Under the pieces are notes generated by a model that did not search any database, was not told the origin of the DNA, and saw only the letters and a program-made list of their open reading frames with translations. From assembly GCA_016211215.1 (NCBI GenBank), contig JACQSR010000008.1:6546-70545 (forward strand): a DNA stretch of 64,000 nucleotides, read 5' to 3'. Of the stretch, positions 47,486 through 64,000 are shown in pieces. Each line of letters begins with the position of its first letter. Position 1 is the stretch's first letter. Source of the DNA: Candidatus Woesearchaeota archaeon (GTDB lineage: Archaea; Nanobdellota; Nanobdellia; Woesearchaeales; JACQSR01). Made by a program: the position numbers and the translations under genes.

Positions 47486-48373
47486 CTATATAAATGTTTT
47501 TAATAGCAGGAGTATATAATTCCTAAATACCAGGGCGCAAATGAATGCCAAAAAAAAGCTTGGCACAAAGGGTATGCCCTCCTTTACCATTATGCGCCTA
47601 ATCTTGCCGTTCATTTTGAGCCTTAGCAGGGCTTTAATCTGCCTTTTCTCAATCCCCAAATCCTTTGGCCCGCATATCCTTTTTCCGTTGATTATGACCT
47701 CTTTGGCAATCCAATCTCCTTCGGTAAGCTGCTCGGGCTTTACCCATTTTTTCATGCACCCGTTTTCCATCGAGCGTATAAAGACCCAGAGGGGAAAAAC
47801 CAAAACAAGGGCAGACGGAAGTATCAGAAGGGCCAAACGCATATCCTGAGTTGAGAGAAATGCCAAAATAAAAAGAAAAATGGCGAGCAGGGAGGCTGAA
47901 GCCGAGATATAGATAAAATTTTTTCCTGCAACAATCTTTTTCGCTTCGCGCTTGACTGCCCTGAAGTTTTTAATGCCAACCGCAATGCTCCATACAACGC
48001 CGTATATTGCGCCAACAAGCAGCAGGCTTACCAGAAAAGACAGCATGAAAGTATCCATTGAAGCCCTTATGCCAAACAATGCCCCAAGGCCCATGAGAAG
48101 CTTTGAATCTCCGCCGCCCCACTGGCCTGAGTAGTACATCCCATAGGATACAAGCACAAACACCAGCAGCCCGACAATGCTGTAGCCTATGAAGCTAAAG
48201 TCATGGTAAATCAAGGAAAGCAGTAAGTTTATACCTAACCCGGTGCCGATTAGCGCAAAATTCAGGGAGTCCGGAACTTCCCTTGTCCTGATATCCGATA
48301 TAGAAGCCACCAAAAGCACAACAAAAGCTATTGCAATAAGGATTATTTCTCCAACCGCCATGACCTTCCCCAC
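47486..48373 (-). CDS. A24-family prepilin/preflagellin peptidase (PibD/FlaK-like)
   Basis: First catalytic Asp region VASISDIRTREVPD. Second in WGGGDSKLLMGLG (GxGD). Multi-TM, with an extra C-terminal soluble domain. Confidence 0.8.
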   Translation of the reverse strand: MGKVMAVGEIILIAIAFVVLLVASISDIRTREVPDSLNFALIGTGLGINLLLSLIYHDFSFIGYSIVGLLVFVLVSYGMYYSGQWGGGDSKLLMGLGALFGIRASMDTFMLSFLVSLLLVGAIYGVVWSIAVGIKNFRAVKREAKKIVAGKNFIYISASASLLAIFLFILAFLSTQDMRLALLILPSALVLVFPLWVFIRSMENGCMKKWVKPEQLTEGDWIAKEVIINGKRICGPKDLGIEKRQIKALLRLKMNGKIRRIMVKEGIPFVPSFFLAFICALVFRNYILLLLKTFI

Positions 48374-59275: not shown

Positions 59276-59341
59276 ATTTATCCCCCTTAGTTTGGAGAAT
59301 GGCAAAGATATTTAAATGTTTCGGTTTACTTGTACTTTATT

Positions 59342-59552
59342 AAGTATAAATTAAGTATAAATAAAGTATAAATCCTAATTGTTACAAAATAAAATTGTTT
59401 AGTATAGAAAGGTTTAAATAAAGGAGTACTATGTTTAGTATAAATAAAGTATATATCAAATAAGGATATCATTATCCAAAAATAGGAAAAAACAATAAGA
59501 TTTATATATTGGAGTACTTGATTATGGATAAACTTAGTATATATCAAGTATA
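59342..59552. promoter_or_regulatory. array of at least 8 AGTATA(A/T/G)A motifs, mostly in 11-bp phased pairs or triplets, in the divergent hisI / RHH intergenic region
   Basis: TTAAGTATAAA-TTAAGTATAAA-TAAAGTATAAA (AGTATA at 59344, 59355, 59366). AGTATAGA at 59401. AGTATA at 59437 and 59448, and at 59536 and 59547. Also GGAGTACT twice. Confidence 0.6.
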
Positions 59553-59563
59553 AACACTATAAA

Positions 59564-59734
59564 ATGCCAGAATCCATCCAGATTAGGATAACCGTTTCTA
59601 AGGAGATAAATGACCTGCTGGAGAAGGTAGGCAAAAAACTTGGAAAGAAAAAATCAATGCTTGCGCGCGAATTGATGGAGCAGAAGCTCTATGATTTGCA
59701 GCTGATACAAAAGGAGCTTGGAAATGAGAAATAA
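59564..59734 (+). CDS. unlisted 56-aa ribbon-helix-helix (CopG/Arc-like) protein
   Basis: Hand translation: MPESIQIRITVSKEINDLLEKVGKKLGKKKSMLARELMEQKLYDLQLIQKELGNEK*. Strand (IQIRITV), helix (SKEINDLLEKVGKKLG), helix (KSMLARELMEQKL). Overlaps the next gene start by 11 nt. Confidence 0.6.
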   Translation: MPESIQIRITVSKEINDLLEKVGKKLGKKKSMLARELMEQKLYDLQLIQKELGNEK

Positions 59735-61817
59735 GGGGCAGGTGACACTTTACATAATAATGGGACTGGTGCTTCTGATAGCAGTTGCGCTTGTTTACTA
59801 TGTACGCACGCTTCCTGAGAAAGAGATTGCCGGAGAGGTGAAGCGCGCAGATGAATTGCCAACGCAGTTTTTGCCAGTGTCAGATTTCGTTGATGCGTGC
59901 CTTGCGAGGATTTCAACTGAAGCAATTACGAAGCTCGGGAATCGCGGGGGTTATATCCAGCCTGAAACTTACGGGATAACCTCGGTAACTGCCGACCCAA
60001 CTTCAGGTTCAGCGGTGCAGTTTTCCCCGCGCTCTTCAATGAATGTCCCGTACTGGTATTTCATGAAATCGGGAAACGGATGCAGGGGAAGCTGCGAGTT
60101 TATTGTTCAAAGGCCTTCGCTTCATGCATCAGGCAAGACTGACAGCTCCATCGAAACCCAAATATCGAATTATGTCTCGCAGAACATCGAGAGGTGCACT
60201 TCGAATTTTGAGCAGTTCAGGGCGCAGGCTATGGATGTTGAAAAGACAGGCGATATTTCAGCAAAGACGACTGTTACCGAGAATGACATTGCAATCGTGC
60301 TTAATTATCCGCTTAAGATAACGCAGGACAATTCCATCGGAGAGGTGAATGAGTTTTCTACAAGGATGGCATTAAACCTGAAGAGAATTTATGAGCTGGG
60401 CTCGCTGCTTACTGAGCTTGAGGGGCAATACAGGTTCCTTGAGAGGGATGTCCTGAACTTAATTGTGCTTTTTTCGGAGATTGACAGCAAAAAACTTCCC
60501 CCAATGGCCGAAACAGAATTCAAGTTTGGCTCCGGAACATCATGGACGAAATCCGATGTCAAGGACAGGATAGAAGGGATGCTGATGAGCTACATTCCGA
60601 TGCTGAAGGTTACCGGCACTTCAAACTACGAGCCGTTTACTGCCATAGGGGACGAGCTTCAGGAGGCATTGTACAATGTCCACAGCACGGTTCCATTGAA
60701 CAAAACCTTTTCTGACCTTGAGGTTAGGATGACTTACCTTGATTTCTGGCCGATATACTTTGACTTAAACTGCGACGGCGAGCATTGTACTTCTGAATCT
60801 GTGTCATCAAACCTTCTTGCGCTGATGGGCATTCAGAGGTATAATTTTGTGTATGATGTGAGCTTTCCGGTAATGGTGGAGATTTACGACAAAAATGCAT
60901 TGCGCGGGCAGGGGTATTACTTCAGGTATTTCCTTGAAGGCAACATAAGGAACAATGAAGTGTTAAAATCAGATTTTGTGCCACTGGAGATGGTTGACCC
61001 CAATCCTTCGTCGCTTTTGTGCAGGGAGAGCAGCAGGAATTCAGGGGATGTGGTTGTTACGGTCAGGGAAAATGACAAGCCGCTTGATGGTGTTGAGGCG
61101 ATGTATTCATGCGCAGGCGAGACATGCTATGTCGGAAAAACTTCAAAGGGCGCATTGGTTGCAAAATTCCCGATATGCTTTGGAGGCATTTTGACGCTTA
61201 ACAAGGAAGGCTATCTTGGGAGGAGCGAAATACTGAGCACCGAGATTGGGAAAAGCGCAACAGTTGAGGCAGGCATGGTGAAGCTTTCACCTGTTAATGT
61301 TGAGATAGGGAAGAAAAAGATGTCTTACACAAACGGAAAATGGGTTTTCAATTCCGCGTCATCTTCATTAAAGGATGAAGAGTACGGCATGATAACCTTC
61401 AGGAGGAAAGGCACTGTTCTCGACGACGAGGTTACTGCAACTGCAGAGTTCGGCAGGGGGGGAAATGTTTCCGTGCAGCTTGCTCCCGGCGATTACGAGC
61501 TTGAGATTAGGCTGTTTACGGACGAGGATGTTGTGATACCTGAAGACAAGAGATGCGAGGGGGCTCTTTTTACCGAGAAATGCTACAAGATTCCCAAGAC
61601 GGAGATAAACGAGACATTCCCGTTGGGAAGCGTGAAGATAAACATAACGATTACTGCAGAGGATTTGGAAAAGGCAAAGATGACTGCCTATGTGCTTGAG
61701 CTTGGGATACTTGATGTTCCGCCTGATGCAAGGAAGATTGAGATGCTGGAGCAGATAAACAAGATGGAGCAGTACTCTGCCGAAAATGAATATGAGCTGA
61801 AGCCGAGGTTTGGATGA
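59724..61817 (+). CDS. large extracellular protein with class III (type IV pilin-like) signal peptide
   Basis: MRNKG/QVTLYIIMGLVLLIAVALVYY fits the archaeal prepilin pattern (K/R)(G/A)-Q-(I/V)-(S/T)-L followed by a hydrophobic helix. A carboxypeptidase-regulatory-like beta segment lies near GDVVVTVRENDKPLDGVEAMY. The track start is the TTG at 59718. Confidence 0.65.
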   Translation: MRNKGQVTLYIIMGLVLLIAVALVYYVRTLPEKEIAGEVKRADELPTQFLPVSDFVDACLARISTEAITKLGNRGGYIQPETYGITSVTADPTSGSAVQFSPRSSMNVPYWYFMKSGNGCRGSCEFIVQRPSLHASGKTDSSIETQISNYVSQNIERCTSNFEQFRAQAMDVEKTGDISAKTTVTENDIAIVLNYPLKITQDNSIGEVNEFSTRMALNLKRIYELGSLLTELEGQYRFLERDVLNLIVLFSEIDSKKLPPMAETEFKFGSGTSWTKSDVKDRIEGMLMSYIPMLKVTGTSNYEPFTAIGDELQEALYNVHSTVPLNKTFSDLEVRMTYLDFWPIYFDLNCDGEHCTSESVSSNLLALMGIQRYNFVYDVSFPVMVEIYDKNALRGQGYYFRYFLEGNIRNNEVLKSDFVPLEMVDPNPSSLLCRESSRNSGDVVVTVRENDKPLDGVEAMYSCAGETCYVGKTSKGALVAKFPICFGGILTLNKEGYLGRSEILSTEIGKSATVEAGMVKLSPVNVEIGKKKMSYTNGKWVFNSASSSLKDEEYGMITFRRKGTVLDDEVTATAEFGRGGNVSVQLAPGDYELEIRLFTDEDVVIPEDKRCEGALFTEKCYKIPKTEINETFPLGSVKINITITAEDLEKAKMTAYVLELGILDVPPDARKIEMLEQINKMEQYSAENEYELKPRFG

Positions 61818-64000
61818 TATACTTTAAGTCATTGGCAATATTGATGTCAATCTTAATAGTTTCACTTCCCATAACCTACGGCGCGATAAGCTCGGTCAAA
61901 GTGGCTGGGGCAGACAACGTCAACGGCATAATACGGGCAGAAGACACCATAACATATACTGTAACTGTTGAAGGGAACATAAGCCCCGAGCTTCTGAAGC
62001 TTAACAGCAATATTCCGTTTGATTCCTGCGCCGAGCAGGGGGGAAAATCAGTTTGTATGCTTTCGCAGTCAACTGACGCTTCATTCCAGCTTCCCGTTGT
62101 GCCGTGGTCAGTTGCCCTTTTTGAAAGGGTAGATAATGTTACAAGGCAGGTTGACTCAAAATCAGGAATAATCGCGGTTGACAGGACAGGGCCGGAGGTC
62201 GTTGCGCTTGCAAAGGATATTTCGAAAAACAGGGTGACGCTTGATTTCAAGGCGCAGGATTACGGGTTTGCACGCGGAGACACACAGCACTGCTCCGGGC
62301 TGTCGAGGGTTGAAATAACGGATTCCGGCGGCAGCTTGTCAAAAACCATAGATGTGACTTCAAGGGAATGCAGCTTTTCGGGCAGTGTTTCGGAGGCAAA
62401 GTCGAGCTTCTCTGAGGGGCACCACATAATAACCGCAACTGCCTATGACATATTTGAGCAGGCTGGAAATGCGCGCACTGTTGAATTTGACATTGATTTA
62501 ACTCCACCCGAGATAGGCGAAAGCTCAGGGGCTTTGGACGCTTTTGGGAATTCACTTACTTTTATTGGACCTTCTCCTGTACGCATGCGTGTTGAGGTTA
62601 TGATTAAGGCGGATGACCTTGACGCGGGAAGTGTGGCTGGAGATTTTACTTCGCTTGGGTTTGAGAATGGAAATGCGAAGGGAAGCTGCTCAAGAAGCGG
62701 AAATGGGAGTAGGTGCGTGTTTTTCATCAATGCGCACGCAACTGCAGGGGGAAGCTTCAAGTATACGGTAACTGCGGCTGATGTTGACGGGAATACTGCA
62801 GCAACTGAGGGTTCGCTTGACTTGACGTTTGACGGAACAGGGCCTTCCATATCGGCAATTAATGTCGGAGTTGCTGCGCCTGACGGCTTTACTTACCTGC
62901 TTCCGGGAAGGAATGAAATAACTGCAACGGTTTCTGATGAAGGAATTGGATTTGACAAGAGCACCGTGTTTTTGGACTTGTCGGGAATAAATCTGGGAAA
63001 CAAAGTTGCTCCGGCTGAATGCTCCGGTGGAATATGCACATGGAAGAATATTCCGAACACCCTGCCTTCAGGATACCTTGGAACGGTAAAGGCCGGAATG
63101 CAGAGCCAGGACTTGCTGGGGAATTTACTGCAGCTGCCTTCGCTTACAATAGATGTGAAGTCTGACAAGAATGCTCCTGAGCTTATTTCCGCAAAGGCAA
63201 CTGCCGTTGGAACTGCCTTTGGACCTGCATACCAGAATTTAATAAAAACAGGAGACATACTGCTTGTTGAAGTAAAGGTACGGGAAAGGCACTCTTCAGT
63301 TGTTTCCGCCCAGCTGGATTTTTCTAACTTTTATGATGCGACGAACGGTTCCGCAACAGTCACAGGAGCCTGTTCAGCGTCAGAGGCAGTTTACACCTGC
63401 ACATTCCAGACGCCTGCAATAAACAAATTGGGGCATATTGTAAGCAGTGCGCGGATAAACATTACTGATGTAGCCGGAAATTCACTTATTTACGACATTC
63501 CGATTGAGGTTTTGGAGCTTGTTACTGAAAAGATAGATTACTGGAAGCATGAAGTAGTTTGCTCGCCACAGCCAATAGACAGGCAGGTGACATCGCTGCT
63601 TTCCCAGAGGATTTTCTGCGCAGTAACACTGACCCCAAAGGTTGATACCCCACGGACATTGATGCTTGCTTTAGGTGAGGTTACTGCAACTCCTGATGAG
63701 CAGGGGATGAATCAAACGGGAGATTTACTTGAAAGCTTTGAGCTGATAAATACGGAAGATAACACCACAGACCCCTACATTGTCTTGACTCTTGCAAAAA
63801 CTGATTTCAAGATGGACAAGCTGAAGGTTGATGCAGTATTGCAGATTATTTCACAGGCCGGGGATAAAGTTACGGGGGTTCCTGAAAACGAGAATATTTC
63901 AATGGAGCTTTCATTCTACAACATGCCTTTAGGAGAATTAAGCAAAAGCACGAAAGACAAGATAAACGAAGCAGTAGACCAGGCAAAGATATTGGGAGAC
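61814..64000 (+). CDS. large secreted protein with repeated Ig-like domains, 3'-incomplete (at least 729 aa; runs off window end)
   Basis: ATGA overlap with the upstream gene. Frame open for all 729 codons by hand translation. Signal peptide MIYFKSLAILMSILIVSLPITYGA. Repeated domain ends D(x)(A/L)GN...D.(t)(g/p)P (AYDIFEQAGNARTVEFDIDLTPPEI, AADVDGNTAATEGSLDLTFDGTGPSI, ITDVAGNSLIYDIPIEV). Absent from the track because there is no stop in the window. Confidence 0.7.
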   Translation, partial: MIYFKSLAILMSILIVSLPITYGAISSVKVAGADNVNGIIRAEDTITYTVTVEGNISPELLKLNSNIPFDSCAEQGGKSVCMLSQSTDASFQLPVVPWSVALFERVDNVTRQVDSKSGIIAVDRTGPEVVALAKDISKNRVTLDFKAQDYGFARGDTQHCSGLSRVEITDSGGSLSKTIDVTSRECSFSGSVSEAKSSFSEGHHIITATAYDIFEQAGNARTVEFDIDLTPPEIGESSGALDAFGNSLTFIGPSPVRMRVEVMIKADDLDAGSVAGDFTSLGFENGNAKGSCSRSGNGSRCVFFINAHATAGGSFKYTVTAADVDGNTAATEGSLDLTFDGTGPSISAINVGVAAPDGFTYLLPGRNEITATVSDEGIGFDKSTVFLDLSGINLGNKVAPAECSGGICTWKNIPNTLPSGYLGTVKAGMQSQDLLGNLLQLPSLTIDVKSDKNAPELISAKATAVGTAFGPAYQNLIKTGDILLVEVKVRERHSSVVSAQLDFSNFYDATNGSATVTGACSASEAVYTCTFQTPAINKLGHIVSSARINITDVAGNSLIYDIPIEVLELVTEKIDYWKHEVVCSPQPIDRQVTSLLSQRIFCAVTLTPKVDTPRTLMLALGEVTATPDEQGMNQTGDLLESFELINTEDNTTDPYIVLTLAKTDFKMDKLKVDAVLQIISQAGDKVTGVPENENISMELSFYNMPLGELSKSTKDKINEAVDQAKILGD

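What the first reader, a model, noticed from the sequence alone, without database searches (positions are those of the whole stretch)
59564..64000. RHH regulator, a 697-aa protein with class III (pilin-like) signal, and a very large Ig-repeat protein in one overlapped operon running off the window
The 56-aa RHH gene overlaps by 11 nt a gene whose product starts MRNKG/QVTLYIIMGLVLLIAVALVYY. That is a good match to archaeal prepilin signals cleaved by A24 peptidases, one of which is encoded at 47486..48373, although the protein is far larger than ordinary pilins. That gene is ATGA-coupled to an ORF of at least 729 codons (incomplete) with a Sec-type signal. The ORF contains at least four Ig-like modules, each ending in a D.(A/L)GN ... 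D(x)(T/S)(G/P)P motif. This may be a regulated adhesive-filament or tip-adhesin locus in which a giant pilin-like subunit anchors or presents an Ig-repeat partner.
Basis: partly seen in the sequence, partly recalled or inferred. Interest (0 to 1): 0.6.

Follow-up and report, generated by a model that had tools for sequence, protein, structure and literature searches.

The report
Conserved pilin-signal surface-protein operon, DPANN archaea
A small regulator gene heads an operon, kept in nearly every genome of a large group of tiny symbiotic archaea (Woesearchaeota), that encodes large cell-surface proteins of unknown family; one of them starts with a pilin-type export signal, so this is probably a regulated attachment complex, although nothing about it has been tested experimentally.

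Summary
RHH gene (59564-59734), 697-aa gene (59724-61817, 11-nt overlap) and ATGA-coupled third gene (61814-) are real. The third gene is 1056 aa, not giant. A fourth 1055-aa gene follows.

The genome is a 1.06-Mb Woesearchaeota (DPANN) MAG.

The pilin-like N-terminus is conserved family-wide: [KR][KR][GAS]|Q[IV]T[IVL]F..xG in 243 of 262 representatives. An A24 peptidase occurs in 144/151 genomes of the order.

Gene order is conserved:
- gene 3 follows gene 2 in 72/72 loci
- the gene-4 C-domain follows in 36/38
- the RHH precedes in 49/71

The RHH is 67-95% identical while gene 2 is 33-80%. It co-occurs with an upstream AGTATA[AT]A repeat.

The body of the 697-aa protein is not pilin-shaped. 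AlphaFold (pLDDT 88.6) gives a TM helix, a flexible linker, an alpha/beta domain without a significant PDB match, and three beta-sandwiches. No ATPase or platform gene is in the locus; they lie on another contig.

Best reading: an RHH-repressed surface adhesion complex anchored by a prepilin-peptidase substrate. Filament incorporation is unproven.

The family is large (8403 clusters), multi-copy, and has no Pfam, NCBIfam or PHROG model.

It is a new variant of a known kind, of moderate-to-good interest.

The parts
59306..59563 (.). AT-rich control region with repeated AGTATA[AT]A boxes (putative RHH operator overlapping the promoter)
   Evidence: Sequence read. The motif occurs 56 times forward and 54 times reverse in 47 RHH-upstream regions of relatives, against 3.3 expected from shuffles. 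It is present in only 1 of 23 loci that lack the RHH gene. An 11-bp spacing recurs.
59564..59734 (+). 56-aa probable ribbon-helix-helix DNA-binding protein, very strongly conserved
   Evidence: It is 67-95% identical across 28 orthologues, with 23 invariant positions. Family matches are weak only: RelB-like antitoxin E=1e-4, CopG E=0.6, PHROG CopG-like E=0.02. It precedes gene 2 in 49/71 loci.
59724..61817 (+). 697-aa surface protein (gene 2). It has a class III-type signal (MRNKG|QVTLY...), a hydrophobic N-terminal helix, a linker, an alpha/beta domain with no significant PDB match, three beta-sandwich domains and 8 conserved cysteines.
   Evidence: motif. (AF2, pLDDT 88.6). (fold matches only to beta-sandwich stalks). 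(no PDB sequence relative). Searches (no significant Pfam match; no PHROG; no NCBIfam).
61814..64000 (+). First 729 codons of the 1056-aa gene 3. It has a Sec-type signal, about six beta-sandwich (Ig-like) modules, then (beyond the window) a conserved Cys-rich all-helical C-terminal domain (residues ~706-1056).
   Evidence: (AF2 of the last 500 aa, pLDDT 76). (no significant PDB fold match, best E 0.008). (the C-domain also occurs as a stand-alone 375-aa protein next to a gene-2 paralogue; hhalign probability 97%, E=2e-11).
47486..48373 (-). A24 (prepilin-type) aspartic peptidase, the only one found in this genome; presumed processing enzyme for gene 2's product
   Evidence: PF01478, E=3.6e-16. 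The family is present in 144/151 genomes of the order.

Best explanation
This is the first half of a conserved, RHH-controlled operon of Woesearchaeota/Nanoarchaeia. It encodes a multi-protein cell-surface complex, most likely used for attachment to a host cell or a substrate.

Proposed mechanism:
1. The 56-aa RHH protein binds the AGTATA[AT]A repeats that overlap the promoter and represses the operon. (Inferred.)
2. Gene 2's product is inserted in the membrane and its 5-residue leader is removed between Gly and Gln by the genome's single A24 prepilin peptidase. (Inferred from a family-wide cleavage motif.)
3. Its conserved hydrophobic N-terminal helix then holds it at the cell surface, in the membrane or on a short type-IV-filament-like base. 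Its beta-sandwich stalk and unmatched head domain project outward.
4. Gene 3's product is exported by Sec. It docks through its conserved Cys-rich helical C-terminal domain and displays an array of Ig-like modules.
5. Gene 4's product, which has a variable N-terminal region and a conserved C-terminal domain, is a third, fast-evolving partner.

Shown here: gene structure, co-conservation, motif conservation, presence of the peptidase, and the predicted folds.

Inferred only: cleavage, complex formation, adhesion and repression.
For: The N-terminal motif [KR][KR][GAS]|Q[IV]T[IVL]F[IM]I.G is found in 243 of 262 family representatives. This is far more specific than a generic signal anchor.

Other candidate pilins in the same genome share the K-[GA]|Q context, for example the 91-aa MKKA|QSISINT.

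The processing and assembly genes exist:
- The A24 peptidase is present here and in 144/151 genomes of the order, while the gene-2 family is in 148/151.
- A FlaI/TadA-like ATPase and an 8-TM partner are present on contig C13. The partner's orthologue lies next to the ATPase in a closed relative genome and matches T2SSF weakly.

Synteny is strict: gene 3 follows gene 2 in 72/72 loci, often with an ATGA overlap, and the gene-4 C-domain follows in 36/38.

A gene-2 paralogue next to a large Sec-signal protein recurs in several places:
- in this genome on C8, C2 and C31
- in 0.5-0.7-Mb genomes of other orders of the class

One paralogue heads an operon of at least 12 small pilin-like proteins.

Conserved cysteines, Ig-like modules and beta-sandwich stalks fit extracellular display. 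The stalks resemble those of Gram-positive pilins, type V pilin-like adhesins and SlaB.

Conservation falls along the operon, as expected for an outward-facing, diversifying complex: RHH 67-95%, gene 2 33-80%, gene 3 23-62%, gene-4 C-domain 21-32%.

The AGTATA[AT]A boxes co-occur with the RHH gene.
Against: AF2 places a low-confidence ~17-residue linker between the N-terminal helix and the body, which is unlike a pilin.

No ATPase, platform or small pilin gene lies in this locus.

PF00482 finds no platform protein in this genome. The candidate partner has no Pfam hit itself.

The peptidase is near-universal in the order, so its co-occurrence with the family does not discriminate.

Docking between the gene-2 and gene-3 products is inferred from synteny alone. 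Homology between the gene-4 C-domain and the small third genes of paralogous clusters was not supported: hhalign E=0.06 and 0.26.

The RHH fold is supported only by weak matches.
Confidence: 0.45

Rival explanations
1. True pilus tip or minor-pilin complex. After cleavage, gene 2's product is loaded by the FlaI/TadA-like ATPase and its membrane partner onto a type IV filament built of small pilins. There it caps or decorates the filament and presents the gene-3 adhesin, as modular pilins or PilY1 with minor pilins do in bacteria.
For: The class III motif is shared with small candidate pilins. The ATPase, an 8-TM partner and the peptidase are all present. A gene-2 paralogue is co-operonic with at least 12 pilin-like genes on C31. 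The post-cleavage helix is strongly conserved (T+3, F+5, G+9), which suggests specific helix packing.
Against: A flexible linker replaces the continuous alpha-1 helix. The locus is unlinked to the machinery or to small pilins in every locus whose neighbouring genes were examined. The family has 1-13 (up to about 20) matches per genome, many for tip subunits. A published census found T4F systems sparse in DPANN (PMC13705601).
Confidence: 0.2
2. Ordinary uncleaved N-terminal signal anchor. The proteins form a T4F-independent envelope or S-layer-like structure, and the conserved N-terminal motif reflects helix-helix contacts in the membrane rather than peptidase recognition.
For: The family is near-universal and multi-copy, as expected for envelope components. 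There is a fold match to the S-layer stalk protein SlaB. A linker follows the TM helix. No machinery genes lie in the locus.
Against: Near-invariant small residue at -1 with Gln at +1 directly after two basic residues is the class III pattern and is not needed for an anchor. A dedicated repressor and paralogous cassettes fit regulated accessory structures better than a constitutive wall.
Confidence: 0.22
3. Bindosome-like nutrient-capture module. The class III-signal protein is a substrate-binding or degradative protein placed on a T4F-like base, as with the Sulfolobus sugar-binding proteins.
For: Large non-pilin proteins with class III signals and a linker are known in archaea (PMC13705601). 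The conserved LE.N.RNN strand could be a ligand site.
Against: There is no substrate-binding-protein domain, no ABC transporter next to the locus, no invariant His/Asp/Glu that would suggest catalysis, and no Pfam match.
Confidence: 0.08
4. Structural module of an integrated virus or other mobile element.
For: Foldseek matches to phage tail-fibre and baseplate proteins. Small mobile cassettes (NTase-HEPN, Bro-like) are inserted just downstream.
Against: The viral matches are generic beta-sandwich arrays with TM <= 0.17, and there are no PHROG hits. The family is present in 148/151 genomes of the order in conserved synteny. Base composition matches the rest of the contig.
Confidence: 0.03

Closest known systems
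Archaeal class III signal-peptide proteins cleaved by EppA/PibD/FlaK-type A24 peptidases, especially Methanococcus EppA substrates with Gln at +1 (own knowledge; PMC3875500 was listed but not read)
   Same: Short basic leader, a small residue at -1, Gln at +1, Ser/Thr at +3, a ~20-residue hydrophobic helix, and an A24 peptidase in the genome.
   Different: The protein is 697 aa, against roughly 100-250 aa. Position +5 is Phe, not Glu. A flexible linker and a large non-pilin body follow the helix. Cleavage has not been tested.
Modular (large) type IV pilins and the PilY1/minor-pilin tip complexes of bacteria (PMC9934059 and PMC7541494, listed, abstracts only)
   Same: A pilin-type N-terminus is fused to, or partnered with, a large adhesive module. 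A Sec-exported adhesin is encoded next to pilin-like genes.
   Different: There is no sequence or significant fold similarity. There is no von Willebrand, lectin or beta-propeller module. The locus is not linked to pilus machinery.
Sulfolobus bindosome substrates and other archaeal binding proteins with class III signals (PMC13705601)
   Same: Large non-pilin ectodomains carry a class III signal followed by a linker. The genes lie away from the T4F machinery.
   Different: There is no substrate-binding domain and no ABC transporter neighbour. The partner genes are Ig-repeat proteins.
Large adhesin-like Ig-fold proteins in archaeal T4F loci (systems 2, 4G; arCOG05616, arCOG03508/DUF2341; PMC13705601 and PMC4858521)
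   Same: Large secreted Ig-rich, Cys-rich proteins are encoded beside class III-signal proteins.
   Different: No DUF2341 or other family match. Gene 3 has its own conserved Cys-rich helical C-domain, which has no significant PDB match.

Membership tests
Type IV pilin / class III signal-peptide protein | Short positively charged leader ending in Gly/Ala(/Ser) at -1, directly followed by a ~20-residue hydrophobic segment | tested here: met
   The sequence is MRNKG|QVTLYIIMGLVLLIAVALVYYV. In 243 family representatives, -2 is K/R in 94%, -1 is G/A/S in 99%, and the leader is mostly 4-8 residues.
Type IV pilin / class III signal-peptide protein | Cognate A24 prepilin peptidase encoded in the genome | tested here: met
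   PF01478 at window 47486-48373, and in 144/151 genomes of the order.
Type IV pilin / class III signal-peptide protein | Actual cleavage of the leader by the peptidase | not testable with these tools
   This needs N-terminal proteomics or an in vitro cleavage assay.
Type IV pilin / class III signal-peptide protein | Pilin fold: a continuous N-terminal helix whose second half packs on a compact beta domain | tested here: not met
   AF2 (pLDDT 88.6) gives helix 3-29, a low-confidence linker 30-46, then a 360-residue alpha/beta domain and three beta-sandwiches. No pilin appears among the top Foldseek hits by that criterion.
Type IV pilin / class III signal-peptide protein | Assembly ATPase and platform protein available, usually linked | tested here: inconclusive
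   A FlaI/TadA-like ATPase (761 aa) and an 8-TM 719-aa protein lie on contig C13, unlinked to this locus. PF00482 has no hit in this genome. The orthologue of the 8-TM protein in a closed genome lies next to the ATPase with T2SSF E=0.004.
Ribbon-helix-helix (CopG/Arc/MetJ/RelB) regulators | Significant match to an RHH family model or structure | tested here: inconclusive
   No Pfam match at E<=1. NCBIfam RelB-like E=1e-4, 22 bits against a cut-off of 50. CopG structures E=0.6. PHROG CopG-like E=0.02. The strand-helix-helix pattern QIRITV / SKEINDLLEKV / G-KKKSMLARELMEQ fits by eye.
Ribbon-helix-helix (CopG/Arc/MetJ/RelB) regulators | Repeated operator boxes next to its own gene | tested here: met
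   AGTATA[AT]A occurs 110 times in 47 upstream regions against about 3 expected per strand. It is present in only 1 of 23 loci without the RHH gene. Binding itself was not tested.
Bacterial Ig-like domain proteins (Big_13 and relatives) | Match above the curated threshold, or a beta-sandwich fold | tested here: inconclusive
   Big_13 scores 24.7 bits against a cut-off of 27. The repeated D.xGN...D..xP motif is conserved in 54 orthologues. AF2 shows a beta-sandwich for residues 577-703. The N-terminal modules were not modelled.
Archaeal S-layer proteins | Homology to a known S-layer family, or a C-terminal anchor with constitutive single-copy organisation | tested here: not met
   There is only a generic beta-sandwich similarity to SlaB. 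The protein has an N-terminal rather than a C-terminal anchor. The family is multi-copy and sits under a dedicated regulator.
Bindosome-type substrate-binding proteins | Solute-binding domain and an adjacent ABC transporter | tested here: not met
   No such Pfam or NCBIfam domain. The neighbouring genes are surface proteins.

The most novel reading that the evidence does not exclude
The gene-2 family and its partners could be the building blocks of a DPANN-specific host-contact apparatus. Each paralogous cassette would pair one prepilin-processed 'presenter' subunit with one large, fast-evolving secreted partner. Under this reading the 1-13 or more cassettes per genome would set host or substrate range. 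The proteins of the attachment organelle seen by cryo-ET in cultured Nanobdellota are explicitly unknown (PMC11420986), and this class-wide cluster would be a concrete candidate. The nearly invariant RHH and its operator would be the on/off switch between free and attached states.
Probability: 0.15. Interest if true: 0.8.

Novelty: new variant of a known kind. Interest (0 to 1): 0.55.

Why it matters
Woesearchaeota and their relatives are abundant, uncultured, presumably host-dependent archaea, and their cell-surface biology is essentially unknown.

This locus defines a very large family: 8403 clusters at 50% identity. It has no Pfam, NCBIfam or PHROG model and no PDB sequence relative. It is present in about 98% of good genomes of the order and in most genomes sampled from other orders of the class.

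Three features make it tractable:
- a strongly predicted prepilin-type processing site
- a fixed set of partner genes
- an unusually conserved small regulator with a recognisable operator

Together these give testable hypotheses for how these cells build and switch on attachment structures. The high-confidence model of the 697-aa protein also offers a head domain that found no significant PDB match.

Tried and rejected
**Family searches**
- Pfam, PHROGs and NCBIfam found no significant family match for genes 2, 3 and 4. There was only a sub-threshold Big_13 match.
- Profile searches against PDB sequences found nothing for gene 2, only weak Ig hits for gene 3, and nothing for the gene-4 C-domain.

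**Fold searches**
- Foldseek of the gene-2 model against the PDB and BFVD matched only generic beta-sandwich arrays, with TM <= 0.17.
- A search of the head domain alone was not possible, because structure jobs are capped.
- Foldseek of the gene-3 C-terminal model found no significant match, best E 0.008.

**Other attempts**
- I proposed a three-module (A/B/C) scheme for the paralogous clusters. The B-module homology was confirmed but the C-module homology was not.
- The giant 1780-aa partner on C2 does not share the gene-3 C-domain.
- The viral or mobile-element origin was rejected on distribution and synteny.
- I tried to link the family to cultured Nanobdellales. Relatives in 0.5-0.7-Mb genomes of other orders carry only 'Nanoarchaeia/Nanoarchaeota archaeon' labels.
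- Small candidate pilins on C31 have no Pfam support.
- A look-up of earlier scan findings by sequence returned nothing.
Full report
**What is there**

The window is C33:6546-70545 of a 1.06-Mb, 35-contig, 84%-complete genome. Its close homologues are all labelled Woesearchaeota, Nanoarchaeota or Nanoarchaeia.

- a 56-aa ORF at 59564-59734
- a 697-aa ORF from the ATG at 59724 (11-nt overlap) to 61817
- an ORF starting at 61814 (ATGA overlap) that runs off the window

On the full contig the third gene is 1056 aa. It is followed, with an 8-nt overlap if MYSKNRK... is the start, by a fourth gene of about 1035-1055 aa. Then come a nucleotidyltransferase/HEPN pair and a duplicated copy of the fourth gene's 3' end at the contig end. 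No ATPase or platform gene lies downstream.

**The pilin-type signal**

In 23 and in 103 aligned orthologues the N-terminus reads [KR][KR][GAS]-Q-[IV]-T-[IVL]-F-.-I-.-G, with Gln6 and Gly14 invariant or nearly so.

Across 262 representatives of the wider family, 243 show the pattern:
- -3 is K/R in 83%
- -2 is K/R in 94%
- -1 is G (50%), A (30%) or S (19%)
- +3 is T/S in 95%
- +5 is F/Y in 98%
- +9 is G in 93%
- the leader is usually 4-8 residues

Most of the 19 exceptions are mis-called starts. This is the class III pattern, and it is more specific than a generic signal anchor needs.

The same genome has small pilin-like candidates with the same K-[GA]|Q context. It has one A24 peptidase in the window. 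On contig C13 it has a FlaI/TadA-like 761-aa ATPase and an 8-TM 719-aa protein. The orthologue of that 8-TM protein lies directly beside the ATPase in a closed relative genome and weakly matches T2SSF.

PF00482 itself finds nothing in this genome. Cleavage is therefore well predicted but untested.

**The body is not a pilin**

AlphaFold2 with 103 sequences gives mean pLDDT 88.6:
- helix 3-29
- a low-confidence linker at 30-46
- an alpha/beta domain at 47-410
- three beta-sandwich domains at about 440-660
- a short helical tail

Foldseek against the PDB finds only the beta-sandwich part. Hits are the B. anthracis TIE protein, CnaB-type Gram-positive pilins, SlaB, teneurin carboxypeptidase-like domains and Bacteroides type V pilin-like adhesins, all with TM <= 0.16. 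The viral library gives the same kind of generic hits.

A profile of the family finds no sequence relative in the PDB, and no Pfam, PHROG or NCBIfam model matches significantly. The invariant residues are mostly Cys, Trp, Tyr, Gly and Pro, plus an LE.N.RNN strand. There is no invariant His, Asp or Glu, so nothing points to catalysis.

**Partners**

Gene 3 has a Sec-type signal and about five N-terminal modules of roughly 110 aa with conserved D.xGN...D..xP ends. Big_13 matches just below threshold.

AF2 of its last 500 residues (pLDDT 76) shows one more beta-sandwich (577-703). This is followed by an all-helical, Cys-rich domain (706-1056) with no significant PDB match, best E 0.008. That domain is only marginally hydrophobic. 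It also occurs as a stand-alone 375-aa secreted protein beside a gene-2 paralogue.

Gene 4 has an N-terminal hydrophobic segment, a low-complexity variable region (orthologues range from 370 to over 2100 aa) and a conserved ~230-aa C-terminal domain.

**Co-conservation**

A scan of one genome per species found 347 genomes with a relative, and 80 loci were fetched. The tallies are:
- Gene 3 follows gene 2 in 72 of 72 loci with room, 26 of them with the ATGA overlap.
- The gene-4 C-domain follows in 36 of 38.
- The RHH gene precedes in 49 of 71. The rest form a subclade without it.

Further downstream many genomes carry a 250-aa multi-TM protein, a 51-aa AbrB-like protein, a second gene-2 paralogue (614-635 aa) and a giant 1800-2250-aa secreted protein.

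In this genome that second half lies on contig C2. The last 124 nt of C33 are identical to the end of C2.

The gene-2 family is found in 148 of 151 genomes of the order (>= 80% complete) with 1-13 matches each. It is found in 16 of 19 sampled genomes of other orders of the class. It comprises 8403 clusters at 50% identity. In 0.5-0.7-Mb genomes of other orders a gene-2 relative is again followed directly by a 1546-2183-aa secreted protein.

**The regulator**

The 56-aa protein is 67-95% identical across orthologues while gene 2 is 33-80%. Its strand-helix-helix pattern and weak matches to RelB-like and CopG models fit an RHH fold but do not prove it.

The upstream AGTATA[AT]A box that the scan had already noted occurs 110 times in 47 upstream regions of relatives, against about 3 expected per strand. 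It often has 11-bp spacing and clusters just before the start codon and near -90. It is found in only 1 of 23 loci that lack the RHH gene. This links the box to the protein and suggests repression at the promoter.

**Interpretation**

The evidence supports a regulated, exported, multi-protein surface complex whose anchoring subunit is a prepilin-peptidase substrate.

Whether that subunit enters a filament is open. Three points argue for it:
- the conserved post-cleavage helix
- the presence of an ATPase and partner
- a paralogue embedded in a cluster of at least 12 pilin-like genes

Three points argue against it:
- the linker in the model
- the lack of linkage to machinery
- the many paralogues per genome

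A viral origin is essentially excluded. Nothing supports a bindosome-like nutrient role beyond the signal type.

**Comparison with what is known**

The literature held here describes class III-signal binding proteins and large adhesin-like proteins in archaeal T4F loci, and notes that T4F systems are sparse in DPANN (PMC13705601, PMC4858521). It does not describe this family.

The proteins of the attachment organelle of cultured Nanobdellota are reported as unknown (PMC11420986). I could not show that those organisms carry this family.

**Limits**
- No multimer modelling was possible.
- The head domain could not be searched on its own.

Noticed in passing
Beyond the window: C33:74266-76361 (L002 10267-12362) and C2:11253-13376 (L011): The last 125-366 nt of gene 4 are repeated three more times. 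Each copy brackets a small inserted cassette: an NTase-HEPN pair, a 278-aa ORF that I guessed to be Bro/KilA-N-like (no family search run), and a second HEPN/NTase pair. The end of C33 is 100% identical to the end of C2, so the two contigs join. This looks like serial cassette insertion at the 3' end of gene 4.
   Followed up: partly
C31:8000-27500 (L095), minus strand: This operon runs: a 631-aa gene, a 471-aa gene-2 paralogue (MRRKS|QVTMF), a 1545-aa Cys-rich secreted protein, then at least 12 small proteins (91-368 aa) with a basic leader, a small residue and a hydrophobic helix. Two of these have Glu at +5, and one is a 91-aa MKKA|QSISINT candidate major pilin. The operon ends with a 494-aa protein that has only a weak SLT (lytic transglycosylase) match, E=0.089. 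None of the small proteins has a Pfam match.
   Followed up: partly
window 59306-59563: The AGTATA[AT]A boxes upstream of the RHH gene are conserved across the order and co-occur with the RHH gene (110 copies in 47 regions; present in 1 of 23 loci without the RHH). Two GGAGTACT boxes in this window were not examined.
   Followed up: yes
C13:23883-26042 and C13:32842-35088 (L009, L094): A FlaI/TadA-like ATPase (761 aa, with a long N-terminal extension) and an 8-TM 719-aa protein lie 6.8 kb apart here. Their orthologues (65% and 56% identical) are adjacent in the closed 0.77-Mb genome G023. This is probably a divergent T4F core that Pfam T2SSF barely detects.
   Followed up: partly
L004 19765-19920, L006 19051-19206 and about 15 other loci: A 51-aa AbrB/SpoVT-like protein (76-91% identical between genomes) precedes the second cassette (gene-2 paralogue plus giant protein). 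So each cassette appears to have its own very conserved small regulator. No copy was found next to the C2 cassette of this genome.
   Followed up: no
L003 8177-9421, L004 8402-9637, L006 8176-9318; own genome C34:7469-8371 and C8:28-507: A 380-414-aa protein is transcribed divergently from the RHH gene in most relatives. It has a conserved N-terminal cytoplasmic domain, one TM segment and a Cys-rich C-terminal part. In this genome the his operon takes that position, and the homologue lies beside the C8 paralogue cluster across a contig break.
   Followed up: no
C8:510-7242 (L010), minus strand: This paralogous cluster has a different gene order: a gene-3-like protein (1308 aa), a 173-aa secreted protein, then a gene-2-like protein (763 aa, MTKKS|QITFF).
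   Followed up: partly
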